Made by a program: the position numbers and the translations under genes. This document shows positions 34,697 to 55,614 of a stretch of 64,000 nt of DNA, piece after piece. This DNA is from an uncultured Gemmatimonadota bacterium (GTDB taxonomy: Bacteria > JAAXHH01): NCBI GenBank assembly GCA_951812955.1, contig OX638340.1:2496001-2560000 (forward strand). The letters run 5' to 3'. The number at the start of each line of letters is the position of its first letter. Position 1 is the first letter of the stretch. Below the pieces are notes generated by a model. It worked only from the letters and a program-made list of their open reading frames with translations. It ran no database searches and was not told where the DNA came from.

Positions 34697-34800
34697 CTGG
34701 GCACAGCAGACGAGTACAGGTGCCCGCTCTTTGACAATTACATAGGAATGACGGGAACGGCGTTGTAACATCGGAGCACTCAAGCACAGTAGCATTTTTT

Positions 34801-37869
<3,069 letters not shown>

Positions 37870-37921
37870 GCTCCAATTTATGTCGTCGTTCTCTCATTCC
37901 ATGTAATTGCCAACCCATTTC

Positions 37922-38048: not shown

Positions 38049-38084
38049 AAGGCGCTCGATTCATTTCGAGCGCCTTTTTTGTTT
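38049..38084 (+). terminator. Rho-independent terminator of the rRNA operon.
   Basis: An 11-bp GC-rich stem (aaggcgctcga / tcgagcgcctt) with a 6-nt loop is followed by TTTTTTGTTT. Confidence 0.6.
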
Positions 38085-38147
38085 GGGGCTAATGAAAGCT
38101 TTAGATCGCTAGCGTAGTCTGGTTGTCTGGCCAGGTCCGGTCGTCGT

Positions 38148-38822: not shown

Positions 38823-39014
38823 ACACCCCTTTTGCAGTTTATCGGTATGCGTCGCACCTTAATCATTCGACTTGTGTGCGATGCGCATTGTTTCGTCGCG
38901 ATGTTGTGCATGCTTGTAAATGCTCTGCTTCACTAAGTGTTCGAGTGAGGGCGAAGGCGATTCGTGGAAGGCGGTGCTCCAGGATCAACGCTCTCAATAC
39001 TGAAGTGAAGAAGT

Positions 39015-39509
39015 TCAATCCGTACTATCCGGCAAATTCACTCCAAATTCCTTGATAAACCGCTCAAAGAAACCGGCCGACCTGTATTCCAACAGCACGT
39101 TTACAGGTTCTCCATCCATGCCCGATATGCCGAGCGGCTTTTCTCCCAAGAAAAATTCCAACCCAAGACTATCCACTTCCGGGTAACCGGATGACCGAAT
39201 AATCCACGCCGTGTCGACGACACCAGTTGCGTTCGAATGGACTCGAAGCAATACTTCTCCTTCGTTGATGAACTCGGGCGGAAGCGCTACGGTTAATGGC
39301 ATTAATGGTATTTCCCCATTTGAGCTCTCATCCTTGGAACGGAGAGTGTCTGATTGTCCTGTGCTATCCTGTTCCAGGTCGGTCATCGTCGTATCTATTA
39401 CAGTTTCGCCTTCCCGGTTCACATCGTCCTTTCCTTCACATGCCGTGTGACTCAGGATGAGGAAAAGCGACACCAGCGCGCATAGACTGATCACAGTCTT
39501 TTTTACCAT
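39015..39509 (-). CDS. Small secreted/lipoprotein with a TonB-C-like domain (cassette A).
   Basis: It has a signal peptide (VISLCALVSLFLILSHTAC). The C-terminal domain ALPPEFINEGEVLLRVHSNATGVVDTAWIIRSSGYPEVDSLGLEFF…GEPVNVLLEY fits the TonB C-terminal pattern. Confidence 0.65.
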   Translation of the reverse strand: MVKKTVISLCALVSLFLILSHTACEGKDDVNREGETVIDTTMTDLEQDSTGQSDTLRSKDESSNGEIPLMPLTVALPPEFINEGEVLLRVHSNATGVVDTAWIIRSSGYPEVDSLGLEFFLGEKPLGISGMDGEPVNVLLEYRSAGFFERFIKEFGVNLPDSTD

Positions 39510-39651
39510 TTGTTGAGTCATCGACCTTGATCCTCCAGATTGCGACGTTTCCAGTCTATCGGTGGAATACCGGTTGTCCCGCTCAGAATCCATGGTCTTC
39601 GACGTATTTGGCATCAGACCGTAGCCCGGCACCGGCCGGCGTCTATATCGT

Positions 39652-40540
39652 CTACCGGCCCGTCACTTCGATTCGATTCCGGATGCCACGCGTGTAAGTC
39701 AGATGCCCGCGTCGGTCAATCCAGATCCCTTCGACGTGAGGCAAATCATCCAGTAACCGCTTTGAATTCTCGACTCCCATGACGTACGTCGCAGTCGCCA
39801 GGGCGTCCGCCGTCATGGCGTCCGGGGCGATGACCGTGGCGCTGAGCACGTGGTTCGATGAAACCCCCAGCCGTGGATTGAGAATGTGAGCGATACGAGG
39901 GCCCTGGTGCAGTCTATAGTTCTCATAGTCTCCTGCCTTCGCAATGGCCTCGTCTTCGAGTTCGACCATGGCGCATAGTGCATCCATCCGAGCGGTATGG
40001 TGAACGTATCCCGATGCGCCACAGGCGAGTAAGCTCGAGCCATCACAGGGCAAAGATGTCTCCTCCGGCCGAAACCAGGCCACATCGGACCCGGTGGTCC
40101 CGCAACGCCCCGACCGCCCGATCCACCATCTTGCCGATCTCCCTGATCCCGCCATCGGCTTCGAGGGCGACGAGCAATCGAACGTTGTTGCACACGGGAC
40201 AACGAAGATCCTCCTGTACCTCGTAAACGTACCCTACAGGATCGCCCTGTTCACCGAAAATCACGTAGCGGTCATATTCCCGAAAGTCCTCGTGCTTCCG
40301 GGATTCGGCCATGTGGAACGTAACCGAAACAAACTCCGAAACTGTCGGTTCATCGAGCGGTGGAAACAGGTTGGACATGCCGGCTAGCTCGTTTGACATC
40401 CTGTAAAGCGACGGGTCGGATCCGACTACATCGGTTCCGCCGGATCCCATGAGATAGATGAGATTCACGGCCACGACTACGGTGCCTGCTCCGGCGATCA
40501 ACACCACCGCCATTCGACTACGTTTCAAAAACTGCGCCAT
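39652..40540 (-). pseudogene. Decayed FMN-binding-domain::ApbE fusion, formed by an internal deletion plus a frameshift (two overlapping ORFs, 40043-40540 and 39652-40155).
   Basis: The first ORF begins like the FMN-binding protein at 50779-51396 (TM helix, …EDLRCPVCNNVRLLVALE). It then jumps at 'DGGI' into sequence that aligns with the middle of ApbE at 49708-50709 (GGIAKGYGLDRMAHVLRNRHIRCGLISAGGD versus GGIREIGKMVDRAVGALRDHRVRCGLVSAGGD). That ORF stops after DIFAL. The ApbE C-terminal half (…YENYRLHQGPRIAHILNPRLG…ADALATATYVMG…) continues in another frame. Confidence 0.65.
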
Positions 40541-40582
40541 AGGTAAGTCACCCGAATGGACGTCTGAAGAACGTCGGAAACG

Positions 40583-43027: not shown

Positions 43028-43040
43028 GATCGGGTGCTCC

Positions 43041-45503
43041 CTACGGTTCCAGGACAAGAAAGTTGACCGACTTGAAGACGCGCTGATCAGCGTGCCGGTC
43101 CGTCAGCGTCACGGTCAGCACATACTCCCCGGCTTCGAGATCCGTGGTGTCCATCGCGGTGTATTCAGCCTCTTCCGCTGAACTCCCCTCGCCTTCGAAG
43201 AAGGACATCACAGTCTGCATGTCGTCCGGCCTTCTGGCCCTGCGGTTCCTCAGTGCGGGCATGCCCAGGGGCGTGATTTCGTAAAGTGTCTCGTAGGAAG
43301 TGCGTCCGGCGTTGCCTAAATCCAGGTTGTACAATTCGTAGTAAACGTAAACGGGGTTTCCCCGAATGTAGAGCCGTCCCGGATTGGGCGTGATATTCAA
43401 CCCCTTGCGCACAAAGGGGCCCTGTACGCCTGACGGCGTGATGAGGGTGGCCAGCTTGAGATCGCTGATGAGCAGGTCGCGGCCGCGGTAGTCGGACAGC
43501 GTGACTGGCTTGCGATACACTCCGACCCGGCTCGTTGTCTCGTCCCGCACCTGGACTGCCAGCGTGAAACTACCCGACGGCGCGACAACGCTTTCAGGCA
43601 GGGTATACACCGGAACTTTCACGTTGCTTTCAGCCATCATACGCTTCGGCCTGTCGAAGGGACCGAAACCGAACTCGTGGGTGAACTGGGGGCTCATGGT
43701 CGAATCACGCAGGGTGACCAGGTGCGCGAGCCGGGTGCTGTTACCCCTGCCGTCCGAGACATCGCCGAACTGCCACACGGGGATGCTGTAGGACAGGTCC
43801 AGTTCCGTCGCGCCGTTGTCAGCCCTGTAGCTTACGGCGTCGAAGGCATATTCGAGTGGTTCTCCCCCGAAGTCGTGCAGGAATTCCTCGGGACTGCGCT
43901 TGATCAGGTTCTCGGCAACTCGTTGAGGATGATGGGTATCGTTTCGACGCATCAACTCGAAACCCGTGATGTCACCAAACGAATCCCCACCTTCATAGAT
44001 TGTCTGAAGTGGATAATCGAATTTCCCACCGCCCATCTGGTCCACGAAAAACAGTTCAAGATTATGCTGTACGTAAACCCAGCTTTCGACCTTGTACGAT
44101 TCTCCGACCAGACGTTTGAGTAACTCGAATGGATTGCTCTCCGACGAGCTCCCCCAGAGATCCACCGATCCCAAATCGAATCCCTGGAGCTGCATGATCT
44201 CCTCATCCAACAACGCCACCGGATCTCCCCTGCCCACCCGCAACACGTAGCCGGACTGCATATTCCGCACGCGTATTGCGTCCACGGCAGGAATCGCCGA
44301 CGGCTTGAAAACGGAAAAGGTGTTCCCATGCCTGCGCAGCAAGAAGTTGCTACGGTCATCCGGCGTACCGTATCGAACGTGAATCTCCCCGCGGCGGTCA
44401 AAGGGATACTGGCCCTCTGAGAAATGATTGCGGGCGTACAGTACGCGCCGGTAGTGTTCCACCAGGCGCTCGTTTTCGACGGTGGCCGGATTGGAATCCC
44501 GTGCGTTCCAGAAGGTCTGCCACAGCGCGTCGCGTTCCGGTCCTTCCACAGCCTCCCAGGTCTTCAATTCATCGGGAGGCGCGACATGTCGCAGGTCCCG
44601 GTACACCGCCTGCTCATCGGGATCGAGACCCGATATATAGGTCTCCAGGGCTTCCTGCAATCGATCGAACCCCCGTTCAGTCGAACCCGAAAGCATGCTG
44701 AACTGAAGCTGCAGGGTCCTGACCTCGTCCGCGACGGCATCTCCTGATTCTTCGACCAACTGTCCCAGGAGTTCAGCACCTATTTCGAACGCTTCGGCAC
44801 GAAGACACACATTGGTAAACCGCTCGAAGGCCCGACGGTGTTTGGGGTTTACCCGGTACTGGTTGAAATAGGCGGCTATCGCTTTTTCGTAGTCCGGCAA
44901 CGGGGGACTTTCATAACATCGTCCCAGTTGATAGTAGGCGTCCTCATGGGATGGATTCAGCTCTACGACCTTGAGGAAATACGTCCTGCCATCCCGGTCG
45001 CTGCCCACGATGGTATCTACTTTTTTATCATTCATGAAGGACATGCCCAGGTAGTACTGGGCGTCCGCGTTGTCCGGATCCAGGCGGATCGCGGTACGCA
45101 ACGCGTTGCGGGCATCCAGCTTTCTGTTTTGCAACTTCAGGTAGGTCTTCCCCAATCCGATGTGACCAGGCGCCCATTTTTTGTCCTGCCGCACTGCGCT
45201 CCTGAACGAACTCAACGCCTCACGGTAGTCGCCCAATTCATACCGCGCCATTCCGAGCCAGTAGTGGGCGGGCGCCGAATCCCCGTCAGCCTTGACGGCC
45301 ATTAGGAAGTACGGCAGCGCTTCCGCGTATCGTCCCTGTTGGTAAAGTGATTTGCCTTTTTCGTGGGCTGGCAGATCAATATCGGATACGGCCGATTGCG
45401 GCGGGGAAGTCCAGGTCTGGGAATGGCCGGGTAAACTCAGTGCAAGCGCGGCGATTGTAAGAAGCAGGCGGACGTACACGTAGTGCCTCTTTGGACGAAT
45501 CAA
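43041..45503 (-). CDS. Secreted TPR-repeat protein with a possible GWxTD-family C-terminal region.
   Basis: It has a signal peptide and several TPR units (AHYWLGMARYELGDYREAL, GHIGLGKTYL, AQYYLGMSF). It has a segment FDRRGEIHVRYGTPDD that resembles the (GWxTD)RG-x-IY-x-YG-x-PD block. The family call is from memory. Confidence 0.6.
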   Translation of the reverse strand: MIRPKRHYVYVRLLLTIAALALSLPGHSQTWTSPPQSAVSDIDLPAHEKGKSLYQQGRYAEALPYFLMAVKADGDSAPAHYWLGMARYELGDYREALSSFRSAVRQDKKWAPGHIGLGKTYLKLQNRKLDARNALRTAIRLDPDNADAQYYLGMSFMNDKKVDTIVGSDRDGRTYFLKVVELNPSHEDAYYQLGRCYESPPLPDYEKAIAAYFNQYRVNPKHRRAFERFTNVCLRAEAFEIGAELLGQLVEESGDAVADEVRTLQLQFSMLSGSTERGFDRLQEALETYISGLDPDEQAVYRDLRHVAPPDELKTWEAVEGPERDALWQTFWNARDSNPATVENERLVEHYRRVLYARNHFSEGQYPFDRRGEIHVRYGTPDDRSNFLLRRHGNTFSVFKPSAIPAVDAIRVRNMQSGYVLRVGRGDPVALLDEEIMQLQGFDLGSVDLWGSSSESNPFELLKRLVGESYKVESWVYVQHNLELFFVDQMGGGKFDYPLQTIYEGGDSFGDITGFELMRRNDTHHPQRVAENLIKRSPEEFLHDFGGEPLEYAFDAVSYRADNGATELDLSYSIPVWQFGDVSDGRGNSTRLAHLVTLRDSTMSPQFTHEFGFGPFDRPKRMMAESNVKVPVYTLPESVVAPSGSFTLAVQVRDETTSRVGVYRKPVTLSDYRGRDLLISDLKLATLITPSGVQGPFVRKGLNITPNPGRLYIRGNPVYVYYELYNLDLGNAGRTSYETLYEITPLGMPALRNRRARRPDDMQTVMSFFEGEGSSAEEAEYTAMDTTDLEAGEYVLTVTLTDRHADQRVFKSVNFLVLEP

Positions 45504-45625
45504 GAAGTGGCATTGACGATTCGCGTTACCGAATCAAGGGGAGTTGCTTTCAAGGTATCCAATAGACCAGGAATCAACAACCGTCTATGCGACGCAGTTC
45601 CACAAGGTATCCCCATAGGTCGCGC

Positions 45626-46297
45626 TTACGCGGCCTCCGTCACGATCCGTCCGTCGAAGAGCCTGATGGTCCGGTGGGCGTGGTCGGCCAGCGCCTGGTC
45701 GTGGGTCACCATGATGATGGTCGTGCCCGCCTCGTTGAGGCCGTTGAGCAGTTCCATCACCTCGGCGCCGTTGGCCGAGTCCAGGTTACCCGTCGGCTCG
45801 TCCGCCAGGATCAGCCTGGGGTTGCCGATGACCGCCCGCGCCACGGCCACGCGCTGCTGCTGGCCGCCGGATAGCTGCTGCGGGAAGTGGTTCCGGCGGT
45901 GGGGGATCTGCATGTGCTCCATCGCCGCGTCCACCCGTTCCTTGCGCTCCTGCTTCGACGTGCCCAGGTAGATCAGCGGCAGTTCGATGTTCTCGTACAC
46001 GGTCAGCTCATCGATCAGGTTGAAGCTCTGGAAGACGAAGCCTATGTTGGCCTTGCGCAGGTTGGCGCGCTGCCGCTCGGAGTGGCCGGACACTTCCTGG
46101 TCCAGGAAATGGTACTCCCCGCCCGATGGATTGTCGAGGAGACCGAGGATGTTGAGCAGGGTGGACTTGCCGCAGCCCGAGGGTCCCATGACCGCCACGA
46201 ACTCGCCTTCGTCCACGGCCATGGTCACATCGTTCAGCGCCGTCGTCTCTACCTCTTCGGTCGCGTAGAGTTTCTTGAGATGTTCTGTCCTGATCAT
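45626..46297 (-). CDS. MacB/LolD-type ABC ATP-binding protein (cassette B), a near-identical paralog of 38148-38822.
   Basis: The motifs are the same. DNA identity to the cassette-A ATPase is high from about codon 10 to the stop and ends abruptly at both gene ends. The gene has backbone-like GC and sits at the edge of low-GC DNA. Confidence 0.85.
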   Translation of the reverse strand: MIRTEHLKKLYATEEVETTALNDVTMAVDEGEFVAVMGPSGCGKSTLLNILGLLDNPSGGEYHFLDQEVSGHSERQRANLRKANIGFVFQSFNLIDELTVYENIELPLIYLGTSKQERKERVDAAMEHMQIPHRRNHFPQQLSGGQQQRVAVARAVIGNPRLILADEPTGNLDSANGAEVMELLNGLNEAGTTIIMVTHDQALADHAHRTIRLFDGRIVTEAA

Positions 46298-46446
46298 GGT
46301 GCGCTCCCGTAGTGTGGTAATACTCCGTATCCACGCATGCCATTTCGGAATCGTTCCTAATATCAAAGTAGCAAATGAAGAGGGTTGCAATTCCAGGTCG
46401 GAGAGATTAACTCCATAGATTGTGCGACTACGTTCATGCTGGAGAA

Positions 46447-48864
46447 TCACTCATACCTGAGCGCATCTACCGGGTTCAACGGTGCTTCTTTTGTAACATG
46501 GAAGGCAATCGTAGCGATGATTACTAACAGAATCCCCATGCTTACCAAGATGTAGAGGCTAAGGGGTGGAGAAACTCGATATGCGAAATCTTGTAACCAA
46601 ACGGCAGTAACCAAGTACGCCAACGGCCACGCTACCAGATTGGCGATCGCTGCCATAACTACAAACTGTCTAGACAGCAACTGAGTCAATTTCATAACTG
46701 TAGCACCCAGGGTCTTGCGTATGCCTAATTCCTTCGTTCTCTGTTTTGTGGTCAGGGAGACCAGGTTGAAAAGTCCCAGGAATGTCAAGATAGTAGCTAA
46801 GATGGTACAGACACCTATAAGCGAACCTAGACGTTTCTCCGGTACGTAAAGTCGATCAATATCGTCCTCCAAGAGGGAATAGATAAATGGAATTTCAGGA
46901 AAATAAGACTGCCAGGTAAGATCTAGGTAACTTAACGCAGATTCCATTTTCCCATCCTGAAAGCGCACCATCATGTGTTCGCCATTACCGTTCGTGAAAA
47001 CCATCGGTTCAACAGGCTGATAAGACGACCGGAAGTGGGCATCCGCAACGACACCTACAACCCTGCCTCGTTGGGTGATCTGAGGGTATACGATATCTAT
47101 CGTCTGGTCTACTGCTGACACTGGAGAAGTCCAACCTAGGTGGCGTACTGCCGTTTCGTTGAGAACAAGCTCGATTACGGGCAAAGGCCCAAAAGTCGAA
47201 TATGTAGCAAGACTCCTGTGCCTCAAAAAGCGTCCGTGTACCAGCTGTAAACCCAGTGTGTTTATGTAATCGTGCTCAACGCCCACAAATCGTACGGATC
47301 TGGAATTCCTCAGACTGTTTCCTGCCCGAGTTCGAACCATCCCATCACCCATTGTACCACGGGCAGGTTCAAGTGCCGGCACATAAGTTGAGAATGAAAC
47401 GCTGAGTACATCTGGCGATCTCAACATATCGTTTTTGAATCCGCTAGGTGGAACTAGTATTCCGCCTGGGAAGAAGCCTGTTATCAGGGGTACATTGACT
47501 ACATTTGATTCGTCAAAACCCTGGGGTTTGGTCAACATGTATTGAATCTGGATGTAGACCACGCAGGTGCTGATAATCAGAATAGTGGAGAGAGAAAACT
47601 GGATGATGATGAGCATCCGTTTCACCAGTGGAAAGTCCACTGAATGGCTGATTCTGTTTCCAAGAGAAAAGAGAGGGTGTACTCCTGACATAACCAAAGC
47701 CGGAAATCCTCCTGAAACGACTCCAACGATTATCGCAACGACAACTATCCCAAGCCAGATTCCAAAGTCTTCAGTAACGCCAAAAGAAAGCGTTTTACCT
47801 GTCAGCCAATTAAATGATGGCAGTGCAAGATAGGTCAAAATGAGAGCTAAAAACAAAACCAACATCACCATGGTTAAGGATGCAATCATATGCTGCCTGA
47901 TAATCTGAATTCGATCAGCACCGAAAATCTTAATCAAACCCACTTCCTTCATCTGATCAGCCGAATGAACCATAGACAGATTGACAAAATTGATTGAAGC
48001 GATGAGCAACAAGAAGATCGCACCTGAAATGAGCGCAAAGATGTAACTCACACTGCTATTCACCTCGAGTTCATTCAAAAGGCGGGAACGAAGGTGAATC
48101 TCCGTTAGTGGTTGAAGTATGAAACTATACTCCCGGATCCACGCGCTGTTGCTAGGTTTTACCGTTGATTCAAAATACCGCTGAAACTTGTCTTCGAGAA
48201 TTGAAGCCTGGTTACCTTCGTTCAACCGGACGTAGGTGTAATAGTCGGGACGCGACCAGTTGTCAATGTAGGATAGTTCATTGCCGAAACTCAGGAAGAA
48301 CCCAGCCTCGAAATGGGAGTTGACCGGGAAATCCTCCATTATCGCGGTAACGGTAAAATCCCATGTGTTGTCGGCTTGCAACACCTTACCGATGGGATCT
48401 TCCTCGCCAAAGTACTTTCTGGCGACTGACTCTGATATAACGACCTTGCCTATGCCATCCAACGCGTTGGTTTTGTTCCCCTTTACAAGTGGTATGGTAA
48501 AGACATCAAACAAGGAGGCTTCGGTCCAGTATACCTTATCTTCGTAAAAAGCACGATCACCGTACTGCATTAGCCAGATGGCCCTGGCCGCCCTTAAACG
48601 AACAGTACTTACAACTTCAGGAAAGTTCAGCTCAAGGGAACCTGAGGCGGCACCTGGAGTTCGGGCATTGGTGCCGTCAATCAATCGGAAGATCTCGTTG
48701 GCGTGTTCGTGGTGAGAATCGTATTTCAGTTCTTCCTGGATATACATCAGGGTTAAAATACACATAGCCATCCCGACAGTTATTCCGCTGATGTTTAATA
48801 TGGTATTGGATTTCTGCTTTAATAGTGCACGGGTGGAGATTTTCAGGTGGTGGGGTAGTTCCAT
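46447..48864 (-). CDS. MacB-like ABC permease with duplicated FtsX domains (cassette B, low-GC).
   Basis: It is 805 aa with the same architecture and conserved blocks (SADQMKEVGLIKIFGA, QRTKELGIRKTLGAT, NPVDALRYE). Confidence 0.85.
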   Translation of the reverse strand: MELPHHLKISTRALLKQKSNTILNISGITVGMAMCILTLMYIQEELKYDSHHEHANEIFRLIDGTNARTPGAASGSLELNFPEVVSTVRLRAARAIWLMQYGDRAFYEDKVYWTEASLFDVFTIPLVKGNKTNALDGIGKVVISESVARKYFGEEDPIGKVLQADNTWDFTVTAIMEDFPVNSHFEAGFFLSFGNELSYIDNWSRPDYYTYVRLNEGNQASILEDKFQRYFESTVKPSNSAWIREYSFILQPLTEIHLRSRLLNELEVNSSVSYIFALISGAIFLLLIASINFVNLSMVHSADQMKEVGLIKIFGADRIQIIRQHMIASLTMVMLVLFLALILTYLALPSFNWLTGKTLSFGVTEDFGIWLGIVVVAIIVGVVSGGFPALVMSGVHPLFSLGNRISHSVDFPLVKRMLIIIQFSLSTILIISTCVVYIQIQYMLTKPQGFDESNVVNVPLITGFFPGGILVPPSGFKNDMLRSPDVLSVSFSTYVPALEPARGTMGDGMVRTRAGNSLRNSRSVRFVGVEHDYINTLGLQLVHGRFLRHRSLATYSTFGPLPVIELVLNETAVRHLGWTSPVSAVDQTIDIVYPQITQRGRVVGVVADAHFRSSYQPVEPMVFTNGNGEHMMVRFQDGKMESALSYLDLTWQSYFPEIPFIYSLLEDDIDRLYVPEKRLGSLIGVCTILATILTFLGLFNLVSLTTKQRTKELGIRKTLGATVMKLTQLLSRQFVVMAAIANLVAWPLAYLVTAVWLQDFAYRVSPPLSLYILVSMGILLVIIATIAFHVTKEAPLNPVDALRYE

Positions 48865-49707
48865 AACTGGCCTACAGATACTTAGTAAATGGTTCTAAGA
48901 GGGTTGTGATTAACGTCGAAGGGGCAGTTGAAAGTCTATAACTGCCTGTACGTTTAAACTCGTCCTCCGGTTTGATCAGCCCCAGACGTTCGCCGAGTGT
49001 TTTGGACTCGTCCACCACTGGCATTCAGCGAGGAGAGCATTTCCGTTGTCGGTGCGTGGAGCGTCGTTTGTTTTTTAACCTTGATGAATTCAATACCCAG
49101 ACGAAGTCGGTCAATCAACTCTTCCAACTGCTTGATTTGAATAGGCTAATAGAGGAAGTCACGGCGAAGGCTTCACTGGCAATATCGCGACTTTGATTCA
49201 GGTAGTTAATGTTGTCGTACGCATCTTAGTCTCCATGTGCGCTGTCAGGTTGGGTCTGTGACGGATTTTGTGTTACTGACTTTATCATGTTAAGGGCACT
49301 TTGTCTTCGTACATGATGATGAACTTGCTGGTGGCGGCCGTCCAGTTGGCGATGGGCCGTGTCTACCTTCGGGCCAGGTAGAGCAGTTTCCTGGCTACCC
49401 CGTCGGTGGGGAAGGCGCCGCCGCGCTATGGTCACCCCCAGTCTGCATGAGCACGTTCACCGCCCGTTACAATTCTGCTTCACATTGCATGGCGGCCAGC
49501 AATAGACTGGCAAAAGACGGTCAAAGGACAGGCGTAAACTTGTCGCTCTGAGTGCTATCCTTTACATAAACCTCTTCGACTCAGTCGTCTTCCACGGCTT
49601 CTTTATTCAGTCGACGTTTTCATCAAGCCCTTTAGATCCTCGTCGGTCTGTCTTGAAGCTACCGTGTATTTAACACCGCTCCCTTGTCATGAAGTACGAC
49701 CCACTCG

Positions 49708-50709
49708 TTAATTGACAATCTGCAATCTATTCTGGATCCCTCTTGTAAAAATAAACTGTCCATGCTGATCAATCCAGATCCCCTCGACGTATGGCATATC
49801 GTTCAGCAATCTCTGAGAACTTTCGATACCCATAACATAAGTCGCTGTGGCAAGCGCATCCGCTATCATTGCGTCGGGAGCGATAATCGTGGCGCTATGC
49901 ACGTGATCCGTCGAAGTCCCAAGTCGAGGATTGAGTATGTGTGTAATACGGCGACCTTGATTGATTTTGTAGTTTTCATAACCACCCGACGTCGCAACCG
50001 CCTCATCTTCGATTTCGACTGTGGCGCACAATGTATTGGGATGGTATGGAGACCGGATACCAATACGCCAAAGACGTTCAGGTTCTGGCCTTCCCATGGC
50101 AAGAACATCCCCACCTGCAGATATCAACCCGCATCTAATGTGGCGGTTTCGTAATACGTGAGCCATTCGATCCAATCCGTAACCTTTTGCTATTCCGCCA
50201 AAGTCTACCCCATAACCAGACGAAGCAATTCGTACTTTCTGTTCTTGCACTTGCAACTGATTAAAGTCTACCAGTTCGAGCATTTGCCGTAAGCTTCGAC
50301 TTGACGGATCACAATTATAAAATCCCCAGTGGTACATAATCGGTAGAATTGTCACATCGAAGGCACCATCTGTAATCTCGCCGATTCGTCTTGCTGTAGT
50401 CGCGACCTTGATAAAGTGGGGTGTTACGCCATGCCAAAGCCCATACATGTTGTTTACATGCGTAAGTTCACTGGTATTACGATAGAGGCTTAGCAGGCTG
50501 TCAATTTGAGCTAAAGCATCGAAGGCATCATAAATTGATTCTTTACTGTACTCGCATTCCTTGATTACAAGTTCTACTTTCGTCCCCATATGAATCTGAT
50601 GACGACGAACAAGCCTTTGCTTGTCTGACAATCCTGCGCCAAAATTGTATGGCACAAGTAACATTGCCGATGAAAGGCCGACCGATTTTATGAAATTGCG
50701 TCGCTTCAT
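49708..50709 (-). CDS. apbE: FAD:protein FMN transferase ApbE (flavin transferase), with a Tat/lipoprotein-type signal.
   Basis: It has an N-terminal MKRRNFIKSVGLSSAML signal. The ApbE family blocks are present (HMGTKVELVI…, GAFDVTI…, VDFGGIAKGYGLD, ISAGGDV, ATSGGYENY, PRLG, ADALATATYVMG). It is 333 aa. Confidence 0.85.
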   Translation of the reverse strand: MKRRNFIKSVGLSSAMLLVPYNFGAGLSDKQRLVRRHQIHMGTKVELVIKECEYSKESIYDAFDALAQIDSLLSLYRNTSELTHVNNMYGLWHGVTPHFIKVATTARRIGEITDGAFDVTILPIMYHWGFYNCDPSSRSLRQMLELVDFNQLQVQEQKVRIASSGYGVDFGGIAKGYGLDRMAHVLRNRHIRCGLISAGGDVLAMGRPEPERLWRIGIRSPYHPNTLCATVEIEDEAVATSGGYENYKINQGRRITHILNPRLGTSTDHVHSATIIAPDAMIADALATATYVMGIESSQRLLNDMPYVEGIWIDQHGQFIFTRGIQNRLQIVN

Positions 50710-50778
50710 AGGGGCTATGCTATGATGGAATCTAGGACCATCTTTGTTTTCAAAAACAAGGCTACGTACAGAAAGCCC

Positions 50779-51396
50779 CTAACCTCGATGGATATGCCTA
50801 AGTCTATTGAGAGCATCAACAATATGAATCGAGCTTTTGGTAGCACCTGTGATTCCGTCGATATTTTCGCCTAATACGTAGAAATGTAGGTTCGGTTTCG
50901 ACTTAAATTGCCTCAGAAACCTCGTTTCATCCTCAACAGATAGTGGTTCACCGGAGAGTTCAAGGGGTTCAAGCACTCTGATATCATGGAGCCGACCCAA
51001 GTCATCGAGTGCGACGAGCATTCGGACGTTATTGCAAACAGGACATTTGAGATCCTCCTGTATTTCGTAGACGTAGCCAACAGTGTCGATTCGTTCGTCA
51101 AACACCACATATCGATCGTAACCTCTGAATTTCTCGTGTTTGCTAGAATAGCTTTCAGAGAAAGCGGATATAGTGAATTCCCTTAAGATACGATCGTCAA
51201 GTGGTGGGAATATGTCGGATGAAGTAATCGAACCACTTCCCGATCCCAAGTTCGACACGTGTGAGTAAATCACATCGTCATCACATGAATGTCCGGATAA
51301 GTAGACTATATTGACCACAGCAATTACTACTCCGGTTATAAGAAACATGGTTCTTTGAATGAGTTTGAAATTTCGCATACTACAACCGAACTCCAT
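50779..51396 (-). CDS. Membrane-anchored FMN-binding domain protein (NqrC/RnfG/NosR-type FMN_bind), the predicted flavinylation substrate of ApbE.
   Basis: It has an N-terminal TM helix, a CPVCNN element and the flavinylation-type motif IDGITGATKSS near the C-terminus. Its 5' end lies 70 nt after the apbE stop. Confidence 0.75.
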   Translation of the reverse strand: MEFGCSMRNFKLIQRTMFLITGVVIAVVNIVYLSGHSCDDDVIYSHVSNLGSGSGSITSSDIFPPLDDRILREFTISAFSESYSSKHEKFRGYDRYVVFDERIDTVGYVYEIQEDLKCPVCNNVRMLVALDDLGRLHDIRVLEPLELSGEPLSVEDETRFLRQFKSKPNLHFYVLGENIDGITGATKSSIHIVDALNRLRHIHRG

Positions 51397-51515
51397 CTTC
51401 GTTTGAGCAGAAGAGGCCGAAGTTTGACTGGTTGTTCCTTGGGAGCCACGACATAGATTTGGGATTTCACTGACTGAACAGAATGTTGAGTTGAGGGGAG
51501 GCCGAGCCAATACAC

Positions 51516-51911
51516 TTATCTAAGGCGGAAGCTCATTGGAAAGTAGAATTGCGCAGATATAGGCTTTCCTTCCTTAGTCGCTGGCTTGAAAATCATCATT
51601 CGTGCTTGCGACAGTGCAAGACTATCTAGTTCTGGATGGGTCGACGATTCTATGATCGAAACAGATTCCACCGTGCCATCTGCCTTAGATCTTAAGAGAA
51701 GTACAACATCGCCTTCATTGCTGTACTTATCCTGTGGCGTGGGTCTAAACAATAGTCGTGGAGACGTATCCCAATCACCCACTTTAGCTATAACTTCAGT
51801 GTCAACTTGGGTTTCTTCCACCGGCACACTATCGTTCTCTACATTTCTGTCGTTACTGCAGGAGATGACTAACGAAAAGAGTACAATCTGGGACAGGCTG
51901 AATCGAAGCAT
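51516..51911 (-). CDS. Lipoprotein with a TonB-C-like domain (cassette B).
   Basis: It has the lipobox LVISC. Its C-terminal domain reads EGDVVLLLRSKADGTVESVSIIESSTHPELDSLALSQARMMIFKPATKEGKPISAQFYFPMSF. Confidence 0.65.
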   Translation of the reverse strand: MLRFSLSQIVLFSLVISCSNDRNVENDSVPVEETQVDTEVIAKVGDWDTSPRLLFRPTPQDKYSNEGDVVLLLRSKADGTVESVSIIESSTHPELDSLALSQARMMIFKPATKEGKPISAQFYFPMSFRLR

Positions 51912-52022
51912 TTGTGGAGCCCTTTCTGTCATATGAGGTCGATTTCTGAACGCGAGGTAAATTCTGATTCATGTTCTAACTTTCAATGTGATTCAAAATC
52001 ACCAGTATAAGTTAAAACCTGA

Positions 52023-53735
52023 TCAATCGGGGCTATTGACCCGAGAAGTAAATCGAAAATTGTATTTAAATATCGTATTTTGGGGGACGATGAGTCGTGT
52101 TCCCATAGTGGGCATTAAACGAAACCTGCCTACAGACTCTAAGGCGATACTATCCAGTGCCGGATGTGCTGATGGTGTCTTTGTCCAAATCGAATCTACG
52201 ATACCATTTGAGTCGAAAAGTACGTTCACTGCAATTTCCATTTCGTCAAGATGACCGTACTCAAGAGGGAATGCACGACTCGTAGCCGTACCGAGGTGCA
52301 AGATTAGAGGTTCTTCATACGATGGCACAACATAGTCGTCAATGATCCCGTCGGTCACTAGTCGAATGTATTGGTCATATCCTTCCAAGGATCGCCAGGA
52401 ATCATCTTTTGTGAATCTGGCGATACTCTGTGCAAAAGATGTAAAAGGGAGGTCACCGATACGGCGAGGATGGGACATCATGTTGACGGATTGATTGTTG
52501 GCGTACGATCTGATAAAAAGACTCGATTCATCTATCGGCATGGAAGACACGTTATCGAAGTATCGTGTGAAAGTTGACCGGTCCGACCCGTTGGAATCAT
52601 GGGCTTCGGTGGACGGCATGTTAGTGAAGTATTGAGAGATATCAAATCGGTCTGACCCGCTGGATGCCTGCACTTCGCGATAGGTAGTTGTAGTCAGATA
52701 GTACTCCACATTTGAAACGTAGAATACGGAAATGGTCGCATCATGAGACCGGACGTAGTCTGATATACCACGCAAGGCTGTTTCACCGGCGAAATCACCT
52801 ACGACTGGAACGATCAAGTTCCTCCCGTGCAACTTCTTGACGACGTCAAATGCACTATCATCAGCAAGGAAGTTGGCTTGCTCCCCACTTATCGTTTCTG
52901 CAAGAATCAACTCCCGCAGACTCGGGAAATTAAAGGTTGCATCCCCCGGTGTTCCCAGATCGTACTGGATGTCTAACTGGCTCCTGAAGAAAGCCTGATA
53001 GACTCGTTCGACAGCTTTCATATCTTCCATCGAGTCTATGCCATACGAATGTAAATGGGACTTGATGACCCGGAGATTTCGCTCGTAGAGTTTTACATCG
53101 GGATCTATTCCGTCGAAATATGCGATCAGCGTTGCAACAGATGATTCACTTCGAGACCAGGGCCGGACCGGTCCTCCCTTAAATATCTCGGCCAGGTAGG
53201 AGAGATTCCGGTTCAATGGTTTGCTGAGCAGCCTAGACAGGAATTCAGCACTGTCGCTGGACTGAGCGAAGAGGGACTTGTAGATCAGGTGCAACAGCAT
53301 GTTATCGCGACGAATGTCAACCACGAAAGCCATGTGCGGCCTGGTCTCGGCGATGTAGGTAAAATTCTGTTCGGGGCCGACACCCACATAAACGCCACCG
53401 GAAACGTGCCGTTCGCGTAGTACGGCAAATGGATGCAGGTAAGAAGATTCGTTTGAGGTGAAATTGGTTGAATGAAAGGAGCCACCCGTCTCCGACAGTT
53501 CTCTAATCAGGTTCGAGAAGGCTGGCGTGGACAGTGAGTCCGGGAGGGCACCTGCTCTTGGATATGGCTTTACAGTCCTCTTGTTAGACCAATCAGAAGG
53601 ATTGTAACACTGGACTGCAAACAACATCACGACAACACCTGCCGTTATCCATGTTGTTGTTTTCCATATAACCATATCCGAGGATTTCCAAGCAGCTAAA
53701 GATTGACCTAAGTATTGTGAAAGTCTCTCAGCCAC
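52023..53735 (-). CDS. Large membrane-anchored protein of unknown function with a C-terminal TonB-C-like domain (cassette B).
   Basis: It has an N-terminal TM helix and a roughly 380-aa domain I could not assign (…GVYVGVGPEQNFTYIAETRPHMAFVVDIRRDN…IVPVVGDFAGETALRGISDYV…). The C-terminus, PSYEEPLILHLG…GIVDSIWTKTPSAHPALDSIALESVGRFRLMP…FKYNFRF, matches the TonB-C pattern. Confidence 0.58.
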   Translation of the reverse strand: MAERLSQYLGQSLAAWKSSDMVIWKTTTWITAGVVVMLFAVQCYNPSDWSNKRTVKPYPRAGALPDSLSTPAFSNLIRELSETGGSFHSTNFTSNESSYLHPFAVLRERHVSGGVYVGVGPEQNFTYIAETRPHMAFVVDIRRDNMLLHLIYKSLFAQSSDSAEFLSRLLSKPLNRNLSYLAEIFKGGPVRPWSRSESSVATLIAYFDGIDPDVKLYERNLRVIKSHLHSYGIDSMEDMKAVERVYQAFFRSQLDIQYDLGTPGDATFNFPSLRELILAETISGEQANFLADDSAFDVVKKLHGRNLIVPVVGDFAGETALRGISDYVRSHDATISVFYVSNVEYYLTTTTYREVQASSGSDRFDISQYFTNMPSTEAHDSNGSDRSTFTRYFDNVSSMPIDESSLFIRSYANNQSVNMMSHPRRIGDLPFTSFAQSIARFTKDDSWRSLEGYDQYIRLVTDGIIDDYVVPSYEEPLILHLGTATSRAFPLEYGHLDEMEIAVNVLFDSNGIVDSIWTKTPSAHPALDSIALESVGRFRLMPTMGTRLIVPQNTIFKYNFRFTSRVNSPD

Positions 53736-53771
53736 TTCTTTTGACTAAGAGACTCTCACGCCGGATCAGCC

Positions 53772-55055
53772 CTAACAACTTCTACCACCATTACAGTAAC
53801 AACCTACATAGCCCCACACATATGCATCCCCACAGTCATCATAATAACTACAATATACGCGATGGGCCAGGACCGCATAGGCAAAGGAGAAGGGCAACGC
53901 GCACTGCAACCCCACGTGGACGATTCGATCGAGCATCCAGACTATCACGGGTAGGGCTGGACCGGATGCCGGAACCAGACCCCAAGAGGACAGGAGCGTG
54001 CCGGGTTTCGTGATTGTCCACATCGGCGCGAGGATGAGGGCCAGGATGAATCCGGCCTCGATAATCTGGAGGCGTATGCGCTGTTGCTGGCTCGCCACGA
54101 AACGCTGGGCAATCAGTAGGCATCCTGTTAAGATAACAACGAGGAGAGGAAACATTGGAACGGGAATGGGCTCAACTATGCGGACGACGAACTGCGCAAT
54201 CTCATTATTCCAACCATGGGTGATGCTCAGTAAGTAGATCGAATGTAAGACTATCCACACAAAGAGAGGCGTCAGGATGAACAATGCTTTTTTTCGTAAC
54301 CATTCTCCAAAGACAGACGAACTTGGAAAAACAGTTAATATCTGAAAGATAAGAACAGTTTCCAGGATTGTTGCTAATACGACGATGTATATACTGAGCG
54401 ATAGTAACCAAACCGGCCATCCTGCGATCATGGGATGAAAGGCAGGAGACGATGTGAGCGCCGTAGCGAGGAAGAGCAACGCGCATCGAAAGGCGATGAC
54501 GTTTAGATGACTGCGGAATCCCATCCAAGTACCAAAACCTAACAGCACGATCGGGAAGATCAGAAAGGGTCCTCTTTGGAACCAGGTCATCTCCGCGACA
54601 CCCATCACAATCTCCTGCTGATCAACCTGTAGGGTGTAAGGTACCTCTTCGATCTCCTCAAGTGTCATGATACCGGTATGTATCCGATCTTCGCGAAGCC
54701 AGACGATTTCGATACGTTCTCCGGGTTGACTTTGCAAACGTGCCTGGAAATAGGCTTCTGGTCGTGATCTCAGGTCGATTCCATTTACCGATATGATCCG
54801 GTCGCCCGACTGTATTCCTGCCAGGTCGGCCGGACTTCCGTTCTCGATCTGTACTGCGATGATACCTTCGTCTTGGCGAATCCGGACGAGATGAAACCAC
54901 GTACCTTCCTGTAGATTGCTAACGGCGCTCTTCGTCAACCCCGGCGTTTGTATCATCTCGCTACCAAAAAATTGAATGCCGGGCGACCAGTGTTCGATCT
55001 GCGTGAATCGAACAAGTGTCCACGCCACCAGACCCAATTGCATGCATAGCAGCAA
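53772..55055 (-). CDS. Polytopic membrane protein with a PDZ domain.
   Basis: It has an N-terminal TM helix. The PDZ domain reads GIIAVQIENGSPADLAGIQSGDRIISVNGIDL. It is followed by roughly 6 predicted TM segments with no HExxH, and it is low-GC. Confidence 0.6.
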   Translation of the reverse strand: MLLCMQLGLVAWTLVRFTQIEHWSPGIQFFGSEMIQTPGLTKSAVSNLQEGTWFHLVRIRQDEGIIAVQIENGSPADLAGIQSGDRIISVNGIDLRSRPEAYFQARLQSQPGERIEIVWLREDRIHTGIMTLEEIEEVPYTLQVDQQEIVMGVAEMTWFQRGPFLIFPIVLLGFGTWMGFRSHLNVIAFRCALLFLATALTSSPAFHPMIAGWPVWLLSLSIYIVVLATILETVLIFQILTVFPSSSVFGEWLRKKALFILTPLFVWIVLHSIYLLSITHGWNNEIAQFVVRIVEPIPVPMFPLLVVILTGCLLIAQRFVASQQQRIRLQIIEAGFILALILAPMWTITKPGTLLSSWGLVPASGPALPVIVWMLDRIVHVGLQCALPFSFAYAVLAHRVYCSYYDDCGDAYVWGYVGCYCNGGRSC

Positions 55056-55506
55056 GGCAAGTGTACAAACTATGAGATATCGATAGTTGAAAAACTTCAG
55101 TTGAGATCACCCCTGAGACTATGGACTGGATTCCGCAATACATGTTGCGTTGTGCCGACAATCGCCGTAAAGAGTTCAATTATAGACTATTCAGAGAAGA
55201 CGTGTCGGCAGCTTTGAAGAAATGTTACGAAACAGTAAGTGTCAAGAAAGTGCTGGTCACTGGTATTAGTCGTTACAAGGACCAGAACGAGGTCTTGTAG
55301 AAAATACTGGTCTAAACTAACACGGAATAGGAAAGGGAAGGTATTGCGAAACTATTGCTTGCGTTGTAGAACCGGCCATTCAACTCTGTGTGGTCGATTC
55401 AACCTGGCGGACCGCAGGTCGATTGGATTGTTCTTAAGGCTTTTTCAACTCGATTGTGTATCGTAGCCACGAGTTTTTAGCCGAAACAAAGCGACGCCCT
55501 TAAAAC

Positions 55507-55536
55507 TTGACACCAGAAGCTGGATCGCAACATATT
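55507..55536 (+). promoter_or_regulatory. Candidate sigma-70-type promoter upstream of the EF-G-family gene (TTGACA-17/18nt-ACATAT/CATATT).
   Basis: A perfect -35 hexamer sits at 55507-55512. A weak -10 lies 17-18 nt downstream. This is about 85-110 nt before the GTG at 55615/55621, which has a GAGGAGG RBS. Confidence 0.3.
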
Positions 55537-55614
55537 AGAGTTTTCCCGGTGAGTTGCCTTGTTTGAACTTTAAATGACTCGTAGAACGGAAGAGAGCGGT
55601 CCTGAAGAGGAGGA

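What the first reader, a model, noticed from the sequence alone, without database searches (positions are those of the whole stretch)
46300..55600. Low-GC block 2 (roughly 9.3 kb) carrying cassette B and a PDZ membrane protein, without recognisable integrase or transposase
Composition drops visibly from the backbone level to a much AT-richer level between about 46.3 and 55.6 kb. The right edge is a 560-bp non-coding stretch before the high-GC EF-G-family gene. No tRNA, integrase or IS transposase was found at the edges. The block is therefore either an old, ameliorating acquisition or was inserted by homologous recombination, perhaps through the duplicated ATPase.
Basis: seen in the sequence. 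Interest (0 to 1): 0.5.

Follow-up and report, generated by a model that had tools for sequence, protein, structure and literature searches.

The report
Old low-GC accessory gene cluster, eroded
The AT-rich 9-kb block is real, but it is not a fresh foreign insertion: it is an old, lineage-specific cell-envelope gene cluster in a rearrangement-prone gap between an rRNA operon and an EF-G gene, it has kept its low GC since before related species split, and this genome's copy has lost its regulators.

Summary
Observation confirmed. Between 46.3 and 55.5 kb, GC is 0.47 against a backbone of 0.64 (z = -9.6). GC3 is 0.48 against 0.80. Codon and tetranucleotide usage deviate strongly.

Interpretation partly supported.
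- The segment is variably present. Five of ten related genomes, and an outgroup, join the rRNA operon directly to EF-G.
- The variable unit is larger than reported: 17.4 kb, about 38093-55500.
- It is old. A relative about 13% diverged (L090) carries the same genes in the same order next to EF-G. Synonymous divergence matches the core, and GC4 is equally low (0.40-0.52). The same jump to a high-GC ATPase (GC4 0.9) is present there too.
- A polarised test on one gene shows no drift towards GC, so "ameliorating" is not supported.
- The ATPase paralogues do gene-convert, but that did not bring the block in.
- The "PDZ membrane protein" is the 5' stump of a sensor histidine kinase, left by a 4.77-kb deletion at 53853/53854.
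- A remnant of an IS256-type transposase lies at about 49.1-49.4 kb. Sister strains carry IS elements at the block's right edge.

Cargo: an ADOP-like MacB-type ABC permease and ATPase, ApbE, an FMN-binding protein with a TGAT flavinylation site, and two TonB-C-terminal-domain proteins. This gene set recurs in relatives. Its function is inferred, not shown.

Ordinary overall, modest interest.

The parts
38049..38080 (+). Terminator hairpin of the rRNA operon (5S ends at 38039). It marks the conserved left anchor of the variable segment.
   Evidence: The sequence AAGGCGCTCGATTCATTTCGAGCGCCTTTTTT is present after the 5S gene in L001, L003, L004, L005 and L007. The rRNA genes were located.
38093..43059 (-). 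Second, partly decayed paralogous cassette. ATPase1 is at 38148-38822. A TonB_C-like ORF is at 39015-39632. An ApbE C-terminal fragment is at 39652-40155. A fusion fragment at 40043-40540 joins an FMN_bind N-terminal part to mid-ApbE and lacks the flavinylation site. Permease 1 is at 40583-43057.
   Evidence: Pfam hits. Paralogy to block genes by blastp and blastn. The alignment shows the loss of the TGAT site. The whole stretch is absent from sister contig L084, where the TPR gene abuts the rRNA end.
43041..45503 (-). TPR + GWxTD-domain protein lying between the two cassettes.
   Evidence: Pfam TPR families and NCBIfam TIGR04514 GWxTD. L084 carries an allele whose C-terminal half is only 72% identical.
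45626..46297 (-). ATPase2, a LolD/MacB-type ABC ATPase. It is high-GC (GC3 0.82, GC4 0.93) and is about 89-90% nt / 93% aa identical to ATPase1.
   Evidence: A gene-conversion tract is seen in L084 and L086. The orthologue in L090 is also high-GC (GC4 0.91).
46447..48864 (-). Permease 2, a duplicated MacB-type (ADOP-like) ABC permease with 2x MacB_PCD + FtsX. The low-GC block starts here (GC3 0.51).
   Evidence: Pfam and NCBIfam. It is 86% aa identical to the L090 orthologue with dN/dS 0.18. It is only 56% aa identical to permease 1.
49093..49435 (-). Remnant of an IS256-family transposase gene (3' end) plus adjoining sequence, inserted in the ApbE-permease spacer.
   Evidence: It is absent from L090 and present in L084-L087. 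One frame reads FPTDGVARKLLYLARR*TRPIANWTAATSKFIIMYEDKVP. tblastn hit 966 plasmid records; the listed annotated hits are IS256-family transposases, with E about 2e-5. Pfam gave no hit for the 46-aa peptide.
49708..50709 (-). ApbE FAD:protein FMN transferase with an RRNFIK Tat-like N-terminus.
   Evidence: Pfam PF02424, 242 bits. It is 90% aa identical to the L090 orthologue with dN/dS 0.15. The N-terminus was read.
50779..51348 (-). Membrane-anchored FMN-binding-domain protein (189 aa) with a TGAT flavinylation motif at residues 167-170.
   Evidence: Pfam FMN_bind, 23.3 bits against a cutoff of 22. TGAT is conserved in the L090, L130 and L132 orthologues. The motif definition comes from PMC8238504.
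51516..51932 (-). Small TonB-C-terminal-domain protein with a probable lipoprotein signal (LVISC).
   Evidence: Pfam TonB_C and TIGR01352. The N-terminus was read.
52023..53675 (-). DUF7790 protein with a C-terminal TonB-CTD-like domain.
   Evidence: Pfam PF25046. AlphaFold model with pLDDT 78.5. Foldseek matched 6ulo at E 3.5e-12 and matched TonB C-terminal domains for the C-terminal part. Identical copies lie on L084-L087.
53853..53854 (.). Deletion junction. Relative to L090, 4766 bp are missing. They held the kinase half of the histidine kinase, two NarL-type response regulators and three small ORFs.
   Evidence: Homology to the L002, L006 and L090 kinases stops at 53853-53857. Homology to L084-L087 starts at 53854. 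There is no extended homology at the junction.
53772..55055 (-). The 'PDZ membrane protein'. It is the 5' stump (sensor PDZ + transmembrane part, about 400 codons) of an 888-aa NarL-type sensor histidine kinase. Its last 27 codons are read from former intergenic DNA.
   Evidence: Pfam finds PDZ only. Full-length homologues with HisKA_3 + HATPase_c occur in L090, L091, L002 and L006. The stump is 83% aa identical to the first L090 kinase.
55507..55536 (+). Promoter-like site of the EF-G-family gene (TTGACA-18-CATATT). It marks the conserved right anchor of the variable segment.
   Evidence: Promoter scan. It is conserved in all ten relatives. Homology with island-free genomes resumes at about 55500.

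Best explanation
What it is. The low-GC block is the right-hand part of a 17.4-kb variable segment (about 38093-55500). The segment is wedged between the terminator of an rRNA operon and the promoter of an EF-G-family gene. It is not a self-mobile island. It is a lineage-specific accessory gene cluster of these Latescibacterota-like bacteria.

What it encodes. The cargo looks like a cell-envelope system:
- a duplicated MacB/ADOP-type ABC permease with a LolD-type ATPase;
- an exported ApbE flavin transferase and its likely substrate, a membrane-anchored FMN-binding protein with a TGAT site;
- two extracytoplasmic proteins with TonB C-terminal domains, one of them fused to DUF7790.
In the intact form seen in L090, the cluster is preceded by a PDZ-sensor histidine kinase and two NarL-type response regulators.

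Shown:
- The cluster was already at this locus, already low-GC, and already next to a high-GC ATPase in the common ancestor of the window organism and L090. It has co-diverged with the core under purifying selection.
- The window copy has lost 4.77 kb, comprising the kinase domain, both regulators and three small ORFs. A truncated PDZ ORF remains.
- The window copy carries an IS256 remnant and sits beside a second, decayed paralogous cassette.
- The ATPase paralogues exchange sequence by gene conversion.

Inferred:
- Presence and absence among species arise by deletion or allele replacement through the highly conserved flanks (rRNA operon, EF-G), together with IS activity and illegitimate recombination.
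- The low GC is a stable property of this gene family, reflecting a weaker force holding synonymous sites at G/C than in core genes. It is not a fading signature of a foreign donor.
- The ABC machine does periplasmic work on the lipoprotein and flavoprotein partners, and the window's copy is no longer under two-component control.
For: Variable presence.
- In L001, L003, L004, L005, L007 and the outgroup L008, the rRNA operon is followed by EF-G after about 140-1300 bp.
- L002, L006, L088, L090 and the window carry inserts there.
- The two states are interleaved on a core neighbour-joining tree.
- All 4 sites fixed between the two groups lie at 55528-55574, right next to the boundary.

Age and vertical descent.
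- L090 is colinear with window 53854-45630 at 84-90% nt, against 85% for the core.
- Identity at 4-fold sites is 0.64-0.86 in the block and 0.72-0.73 in the core.
- GC4 is 0.40-0.58 in the window and 0.35-0.71 in L090 for block genes. It is 0.93 and 0.91 for the ATPase.
- dS is 0.20-0.61 in the block and 0.43-0.48 in the core. Block dN/dS is 0.15-0.39.

No amelioration.
- DUF7790 singleton changes are 27 S>W against 13 W>S.
- The DUF7790-permease pair at the PhyH/PfkB locus in L082, L127, L129 and L131 is also low-GC.

Erosion.
- Deletion junction.
- IS256 remnant.
- IS5-like and ISL3 transposases at the edge in L085 and L087.
- L088 carries an independent 6.2-kb deletion that ends 53 bp from the window's junction.
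- The decayed cassette lacks the TGAT site.

Gene conversion.

Recurring gene set: L090, L130 and L132.
Against: - The window-specific junction at 53853/53854 has no independent assembly behind it. The two exact-protein look-ups that bear on it found nothing.
- Vertical descent rests mainly on one colinear relative (L090/L091). FMN_bind and ApbE are somewhat more similar than the core (dS 0.20-0.31), so a recombination tract between lineages is not excluded.
- The polarised test uses one gene and 40 informative changes, and recent singletons are biased towards AT in any case.
- The core tree uses only about 4 kb and is nearly star-like, so the number of losses against gains cannot be counted.
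- The function of the cargo is inferred from domains and neighbourhood only.
Confidence: 0.72

Rival explanations
1. A classical, fairly recent horizontally acquired genomic island from a lower-GC donor, which has not yet had time to ameliorate.
For: The block deviates strongly in GC, codon usage and tetranucleotide usage. It is patchily present among relatives. IS elements and an IS remnant lie in and around it.
Against: An orthologous colinear block sits at the same locus in L090, with core-like synonymous divergence and the same GC4. DUF7790 homologues at 45-81% identity occur on large contigs of related genomes, including the L003 chromosome. Two contigs carry two family members each. The family is low-GC at a second syntenic locus in four genomes. 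No integrase, tRNA edge or flanking repeats of more than 8 bp were found. The signature correlates only 0.58 with the one lower-GC relative available, L008.
Confidence: 0.1
2. The block was inserted, or swapped in, by homologous recombination through the duplicated ATPase gene.
For: The composition switches exactly at the ATPase/permease boundary. The two ATPase copies are about 89-90% nt identical while their permeases are about 61-64%. A conversion tract is seen in L084 and L086.
Against: The same low-GC permease / high-GC ATPase junction exists in L090, so it predates the species split. L084 has the block and ATPase2 but lacks ATPase1 and permease 1, so the duplicate is the later or more variable part. 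Simple recombination between the two copies would delete the TPR gene, and that product is not seen.
Confidence: 0.08
3. Assembly chimera: low-GC DNA from another organism was joined to this chromosome during metagenome assembly.
For: The relatives are metagenome-assembled genomes, and the window most likely is one too. The right-hand junction at 53853/53854 is unique to the window.
Against: The left junction (permease-ATPase-TPR, and in L084 the link to the rRNA operon) is reproduced in independent assemblies L084 and L086. L090 reproduces the permease-ATPase part and places the kinase, the cassette and EF-G together in the same order and orientation. The window junction is therefore a simple internal deletion.
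Confidence: 0.03
4. The low GC is actively maintained. One route is selection for AT-rich sequence, for example for silencing or regulated expression. Another is that the block escapes GC-biased gene conversion while the ATPase paralogues and core genes experience it.
For: GC4 is stable at 0.40-0.52 in two lineages, next to an ATPase at 0.91-0.93 that demonstrably gene-converts. S>W changes per G/C site are about 0.38 in DUF7790 against 0.16 in EF-G, computed from the counts. The low GC recurs at two loci in five or more genomes.
Against: There is no direct test. EF-G is a highly expressed gene and a poor control. Core genes without paralogues are also GC-rich. The sample is small. This rival refines the best explanation rather than excluding it.
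Confidence: 0.25

Closest known systems
Flexible (replacement-type) genomic islands located between conserved core genes and exchanged or lost by homologous recombination in the flanks. This concept is recalled from my own knowledge of the literature on marine bacterial pangenomes; I did not read it here.
   Same: The segment sits at a fixed position between conserved genes (rRNA operon and EF-G). Its content differs between related genomes. It has deviating composition. No integrase, tRNA or att repeats are needed.
   Different: Here at least part of the content is orthologous and co-diverged between species. The cargo is not the usual surface-glycan type. The changes actually seen are deletions, IS insertions and paralogue conversion. 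No flank-mediated swap has been demonstrated.
Classical integrase- and tRNA-linked genomic or pathogenicity islands
   Same: Compositional deviation, variable presence, and IS elements nearby.
   Different: There is no integrase, no tRNA at an edge and no direct repeats. The block is not recent.
MacB / LolCDE / FtsEX type VII ABC systems, and the ADOP duplicated-permease family (TIGR03434)
   Same: The permease has 2x (MacB_PCD + FtsX) in one 805-aa chain. The ATPase is LolD/MacB-like. The partners are extracytoplasmic, as expected for machines that transmit force across the membrane.
   Different: The permease scores far below the ADOP family cutoff (206.8 against 622.3). It is paired with an ATPase, whereas most ADOP members are orphans (only 4 of 34 distant loci had an ATPase nearby). 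The substrate is unknown.
ApbE / FMN-binding-domain extracytosolic flavinylation systems (Meheust et al. 2021, PMC8238504)
   Same: ApbE lies next to an FMN_bind protein with an [S/T]GA[S/T] motif. A TonB_C (PF03544) protein is in the cluster, as in some PepSY-like clusters described there.
   Different: There is no recognisable membrane electron-transfer partner (PepSY-like, NapH, DsbD, Nqr or Rnf). The association with a MacB-type ABC transporter, DUF7790 and a PDZ-sensor two-component system is not mentioned in that survey or its 2024 follow-up.

Membership tests
Classical genomic island | Base composition and codon usage deviate from the host genome | tested here: met
   GC 0.47 against 0.64, GC3 0.48 against 0.80, codon chi2 1320, deviating tetranucleotide usage.
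Classical genomic island | Variable presence among related genomes | tested here: met
   Five of ten relatives and the outgroup join the rRNA operon directly to EF-G.
Classical genomic island | Insertion next to a tRNA/tmRNA gene, with flanking direct repeats | tested here: not met
   The only tRNAs are inside the rRNA spacer at 34.5 kb. The longest shared word between the two edges is 8 bp.
Classical genomic island | Integrase, recombinase or other intact mobility gene | tested here: not met
   All ORFs of 130 aa or more were assigned to other families. Only a roughly 340-nt IS256 remnant is present.
Classical genomic island | Recent acquisition, i.e. less diverged than or absent from the common ancestor with close relatives | tested here: not met
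   The block is colinear in L090 with dS and 4-fold identity like the core.
ADOP duplicated permease (TIGR03434) | About 800 aa with two MacB_PCD + FtsX modules | tested here: met
   Pfam finds 2 stretches of each domain in 805 aa.
ADOP duplicated permease (TIGR03434) | Score at or above the NCBIfam cutoff | tested here: not met
   206.8 bits against a cutoff of 622.3.
ApbE-dependent flavinylation system | ApbE family enzyme | tested here: met
   PF02424, 242.5 bits, full-length match.
ApbE-dependent flavinylation system | Substrate with an FMN-binding domain and an [S/T]GA[S/T] motif | tested here: met
   FMN_bind scores 23.3 bits, just above the cutoff of 22. TGAT at 167-170 is conserved in 4 orthologues. 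The motif is defined in PMC8238504.
ApbE-dependent flavinylation system | Covalent FMN actually attached, and a linked membrane electron-transfer partner | not testable with these tools
   No partner domain was recognised in the cluster. Flavinylation needs an experiment.
NarL-type sensor histidine kinase (applied to the 'PDZ membrane protein') | HisKA_3 dimerisation/phosphoacceptor domain and HATPase_c domain | tested here: not met
   The window ORF has PDZ domains only. Full-length homologues have HisKA_3 + HATPase_c. Homology ends at nt 53853.
IS256 family insertion sequence | Intact Transposase_mut gene with terminal inverted repeats | tested here: not met
   Only about 45 codons of the 3' end remain, with an internal stop. 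Pfam gave no hit. Terminal repeats were not examined.

The most novel reading that the evidence does not exclude
Two readings are not excluded.

(a) The recurring gene set defines an undescribed envelope system. The set is a PDZ-sensor kinase, two NarL regulators, small ORFs, DUF7790-TonB-CTD, a TonB-CTD lipoprotein, FMN_bind, ApbE, an ADOP-like permease and an ATPase. In such a system a MacB-type ABC machine would be coupled to a covalently flavinylated periplasmic protein.

(b) This gene family holds a synonymous-site GC of about 0.45 for a long time inside genomes whose core sits at about 0.9, directly beside a gene at 0.93. That would point to a local, gene-specific force on base composition, such as escape from GC-biased conversion or selection for AT-rich DNA, rather than to foreign origin.
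Probability: 0.3. Interest if true: 0.55.

Novelty: new member of a known kind. Interest (0 to 1): 0.3.

Why it matters
This is a caution for island callers. A 17-point GC drop with no mobility genes would normally be scored as recent horizontal transfer. Here the comparison with relatives shows an old, co-diverging, lineage-native cluster whose odd composition is stable.

It also corrects the annotation of the 'PDZ membrane protein', which is a deletion stump of a sensor kinase. It shows how such loci erode through IS hits, microhomology deletions, paralogue conversion and loss of regulators.

If the cargo proves to be a functional unit, it would add a new context for ApbE-dependent flavinylation, linked to a MacB-type ABC transporter, in a poorly studied phylum.

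Tried and rejected
- Exact-protein look-ups of the window's EF-G, of the 534-aa DUF7790 variant and of the kinase stump found nothing. The source genome and the unique junction could therefore not be cross-checked. A 100%-identical DUF7790 sits on a 3.81-Mb contig that is probably the source.
- The metagenome scan with permease 2 returned only the contig already known, plus ADOP permeases at about 30% identity. None of these had ApbE, FMN_bind, DUF7790 or TonB_C neighbours.
- Rfam found nothing in the block at the gathering threshold or at E <= 1. The spacers hold no known RNA family.
- Pfam did not recognise the 46-aa IS remnant. tblastn against plasmids did.
- Terminal direct repeats were looked for and not found.
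- A donor resembling L008, the only lower-GC relative available, was rejected on tetranucleotide signature (0.58).
- The DUF7790 fold search gave only an uncharacterised Leptospira protein and weak Rossmann/methyltransferase-like matches, so no function is claimed.
- The first dN/dS run had an indexing bug for gapped alignments.

Full report
**1. The observation**

The window is compositionally mixed. The backbone is 0.61-0.68 GC. The rRNA operon (32890-38039) is about 0.54. There are several lower-GC stretches.

Between 46.3 and 55.5 kb, 1-kb windows average 0.472 GC. Twenty-two backbone windows average 0.640 (sd 0.018), so z = -9.6. GC3 of the six genes inside is 0.43-0.56, against 0.72-0.86 in 12 backbone genes. 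The codon tables differ with chi2 = 1320 on 60 df. The tetranucleotide distance to the backbone is three to four times the spread within the backbone. The composition-normalised signature correlates only 0.43-0.60 with the backbone.

The left edge is sharp. It falls in the 150 bp between a high-GC ABC ATPase (45626-46297, GC3 0.82) and a low-GC permease (46447-48864, GC3 0.51).

**2. What is in the block**

All genes lie on the minus strand. In order of transcription they are:
- A 'PDZ membrane protein' at 53772-55055.
- A DUF7790 protein at 52023-53675. Its C-terminal roughly 100 residues fold like a TonB C-terminal domain (model pLDDT 78.5).
- A small TonB_C protein with a lipoprotein-like signal at 51516-51932.
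- A membrane-anchored FMN_bind protein at 50779-51348, with a TGAT flavinylation motif.
- ApbE at 49708-50709, with a Tat-like RRNFIK N-terminus.
- An 843-bp spacer.
- An 805-aa duplicated MacB-type (ADOP-like) permease.
- The LolD/MacB-type ATPase, which lies after the composition shift.

No known RNA family is present.

**3. Relatives show that the variable unit is larger**

A scan of species-representative genomes with the EF-G-family protein found seven relatives at 88-91% identity (L001-L007). Two of them are labelled Candidatus Latescibacterota; the others are unclassified. It also found a 68% outgroup, L008.

In L001, L003, L004, L005, L007 and L008, the rRNA operon (97% identical to the window's in the five close relatives) is followed directly by EF-G. 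The gap is about 140-270 bp in L003, L004 and L007, about 220 bp in L008, and about 1.3 kb in L001 and L005, which hold an unrelated 1.2-kb gene there.

The conserved anchors are the rRNA terminator hairpin (38049-38080) and the EF-G promoter (55507-55536). Everything between about 38093 and about 55500, which is 17.4 kb, is therefore variable. That is roughly twice the reported block.

L002 and L006 carry other content there, led by a homologue of the PDZ gene.

**4. The PDZ gene is a stump**

In L002, L006 and L090/L091 the homologue is an 888-907-aa NarL-type sensor histidine kinase with PDZ, transmembrane, HisKA_3 and HATPase_c parts. It is followed by two Response_reg + GerE regulators.

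The window ORF matches only the first roughly 400-416 residues, and homology stops at nt 53853-53857. Four independent contigs (L084-L087) carry a 100%-identical DUF7790 protein and match the window at 96-99.8%. All four diverge from the window exactly at 53854.

L090 shows what lay between. It holds 4766 bp with the kinase half, two regulators and three small ORFs (173, 198 and 82 aa). The junction has no extended homology, only 1-3 nt. This is an illegitimate deletion. The last 27 codons of the 'PDZ protein' are read from former intergenic DNA.

L088, a sister of L090, has an independent 6.2-kb deletion. It removes the whole kinase and ends 53 bp from the window's breakpoint. An IS3-like end also interrupts its TonB_C gene; that identification is from my own reading of the sequence.

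**5. Age and descent**

L090 is a 265-kb TARA scaffold whose core distance to the window is 0.13. It has the order EF-G | kinase, two regulators, three small ORFs, DUF7790, TonB_C, FMN_bind, ApbE, permease, ATPase. It is colinear with window 55293-45630 apart from the deletion and a 340-nt insert.

| Measure | Core genes | Block genes | ATPase |
|---|---|---|---|
| 4-fold-site identity | 0.72-0.73 | 0.64-0.86 | 0.74 |
| NG86 dS | 0.43-0.48 | 0.20-0.61 | 0.34 |
| dN/dS | 0.08-0.12 | 0.15-0.39 | 0.09 |
| GC4, window / L090 | 0.87-0.93 / 0.87-0.89 | 0.40-0.58 / 0.35-0.71 | 0.93 / 0.91 |

The cassette genes from DUF7790 to the permease have GC4 of 0.40-0.50 in the window and 0.35-0.52 in L090. The kinase stump is higher, at 0.58 and 0.71.

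The cluster, its low GC and the abrupt switch at the ATPase all predate the split of these two species.

DUF7790 orthologues at 64-79% identity also sit beside an ADOP-like permease at a second, syntenic locus (PhyH ... PfkB) in L082, L127, L129 and L131. L082 is the chromosome of L003, which has no insert at EF-G. Each time the pair is 0.47-0.55 GC inside 0.60-0.70 flanks. Further family members (45-50% identity) lie on similarly large contigs, and two contigs carry two members each. No foreign donor is indicated. The only lower-GC relative, L008, has a dissimilar signature.

**6. Is it ameliorating?**

I used six DUF7790 sequences and counted changes seen in a single sequence at conserved 4-fold sites. 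There were 27 G/C->A/T and 13 A/T->G/C changes. That shows no flux towards the host's GC. Per G/C site the loss rate is about 0.38, against 0.16 in EF-G; those rates are my arithmetic on the counts.

The sample is small and singletons are AT-biased by nature. Still, together with section 5 the data fit a stable low-GC state better than amelioration.

**7. The ATPase duplicate**

ATPase1 (38148-38822) and ATPase2 are about 89-90% nt and 93% aa identical. Their permeases are about 61-64% nt and 56% aa identical.

In L084 and L086, the gene at the ATPase2 position carries a roughly 330-bp stretch nearly identical to the window's ATPase1. The remainder equals ATPase2: 30 differences are clustered in that stretch and there are none elsewhere. 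That is a gene-conversion tract. So the paralogues do recombine.

However, L084 lacks 38093-43059 altogether, and its TPR gene abuts the rRNA end. L090 already has the low-GC permease next to the high-GC ATPase. Recombination through the ATPase therefore did not bring in the block.

The 38.1-43.06 kb cassette is a decayed paralogue. Its FMN_bind gene is fused by an internal deletion to mid-ApbE, and the TGAT site is gone. Its gene order (permease, FMN_bind, ApbE) matches that of L130 and L132.

**8. Mobility traces**

The ApbE-permease spacer has about 340 nt that L090 lacks. One frame reads FPTDGVARKLLYLARR*TRPIANWTAATSKFIIMYEDKVP. That peptide hit 966 plasmid records; the listed annotated hits are IS256-family transposases, with E about 2e-5.

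Sister strains have an IS5-like transposase (L085) and an ISL3 transposase (L087) just beyond the right edge of the cassette. No integrase, tRNA edge or terminal repeat exists.

On a 4-kb core tree, insert-bearing and insert-free genomes interleave. The only four sites fixed between the two groups lie at 55528-55574, in the EF-G promoter and 5'UTR next to the boundary. This fits a single origin of the insert-bearing allele, followed by loss or exchange through the conserved flanks. That step is inference.

**9. How the cargo may work**

This section is inferred. MacB-type (type VII) ABC systems use cytoplasmic ATP hydrolysis to do work in the periplasm; that is established knowledge for MacB, LolCDE and FtsEX. 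Here every partner is extracytoplasmic. ApbE would attach FMN to Thr170 of the FMN_bind protein (motif per PMC8238504). The DUF7790 and small TonB_C proteins carry domains that normally contact outer-membrane receptors. The PDZ-sensor kinase and the NarL regulators would control expression in intact loci.

The gene set recurs at 52-100% identity in four arrangements: the window type, L090, L130 and L132. It does not recur around distant ADOP permeases. Two flavinylation surveys do not mention ABC, FtsX or MacB partners.

The window's copy keeps intact structural genes. The comparison with L090 shows purifying selection on them. It has lost its regulators.

**10. Verdict**

It is wrong in its details: the block is not ameliorating, was not inserted through the ATPase, is not a single unit, and is not free of transposase traces.

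This is a new example of a known kind of thing, a flexible accessory locus. It has two mildly unusual aspects: long-term stability of a very large GC contrast, and an undescribed flavinylation-ABC gene association.

Noticed in passing
window 19814-19840, 21614-21640, 26476-26502 (+): A 27-nt motif, ATAGTCGTGGTTnnnTGGGnAATnTCG, occurs three times, only in low-GC block 1. None is expected by chance. It may be a regulatory site linked to the neighbouring ECF-sigma-type genes.
   Followed up: partly
window 24324-26198 and 26538-28412 (-): Two tandem paralogous 624-aa proteins with an N-terminal ECF sigma-70 domain, about 80% nt identical over a 300-nt stretch. They are conserved and also low-GC in L003, L004, L005 and L007.
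   Followed up: partly
window 19.9-24.3 kb: This stretch holds an unknown ORF, a TonB_C ORF and an ADOP-like permease (21794-24193). It has no counterpart in L007, where the ATPase (19077-19769) is followed directly by the 24324 gene. It is a second variable spot next to an ABC ATPase.
   Followed up: no
L001 and L005, about 8650-9900: The insert-free genomes L001 and L005 share an unrelated 1.2-kb minus-strand gene in the rRNA-EF-G spacer, although they are not sisters on the core tree.
   Followed up: no
window 48974-49142: The leader region upstream of permease 2 is 71% identical to L006 9-179 and 79% identical to the L090 spacer. It may be a shared regulatory leader. It has no Rfam match.
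   Followed up: no
window about 55104: The codon aligned with the TTG start of the L090 kinase is CTG in the window. The stump may also have lost its original start codon.
   Followed up: partly
L090 3763-7924 and 17905-21629: L090 carries two copies of the PDZ-kinase + regulator module (67% nt identical) flanking the cassette. The kinases of L002 and L006 resemble the second copy more than the first, judging by their identities to the window stump.
   Followed up: no
window 2001-4581: Another lower-GC stretch (0.50-0.57; GC3 0.56-0.64) at the left end of the window. It was not examined.
   Followed up: no
FMN_bind proteins of window, L090, L130, L132: Besides the TGAT site, a conserved C-[PS]-V-C-N-N-V-R motif (CPVCNNVR in three of four, CSVCNNVR in L132) is present in all four orthologues and in the decayed copy. 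It may be a metal or redox site.
   Followed up: no
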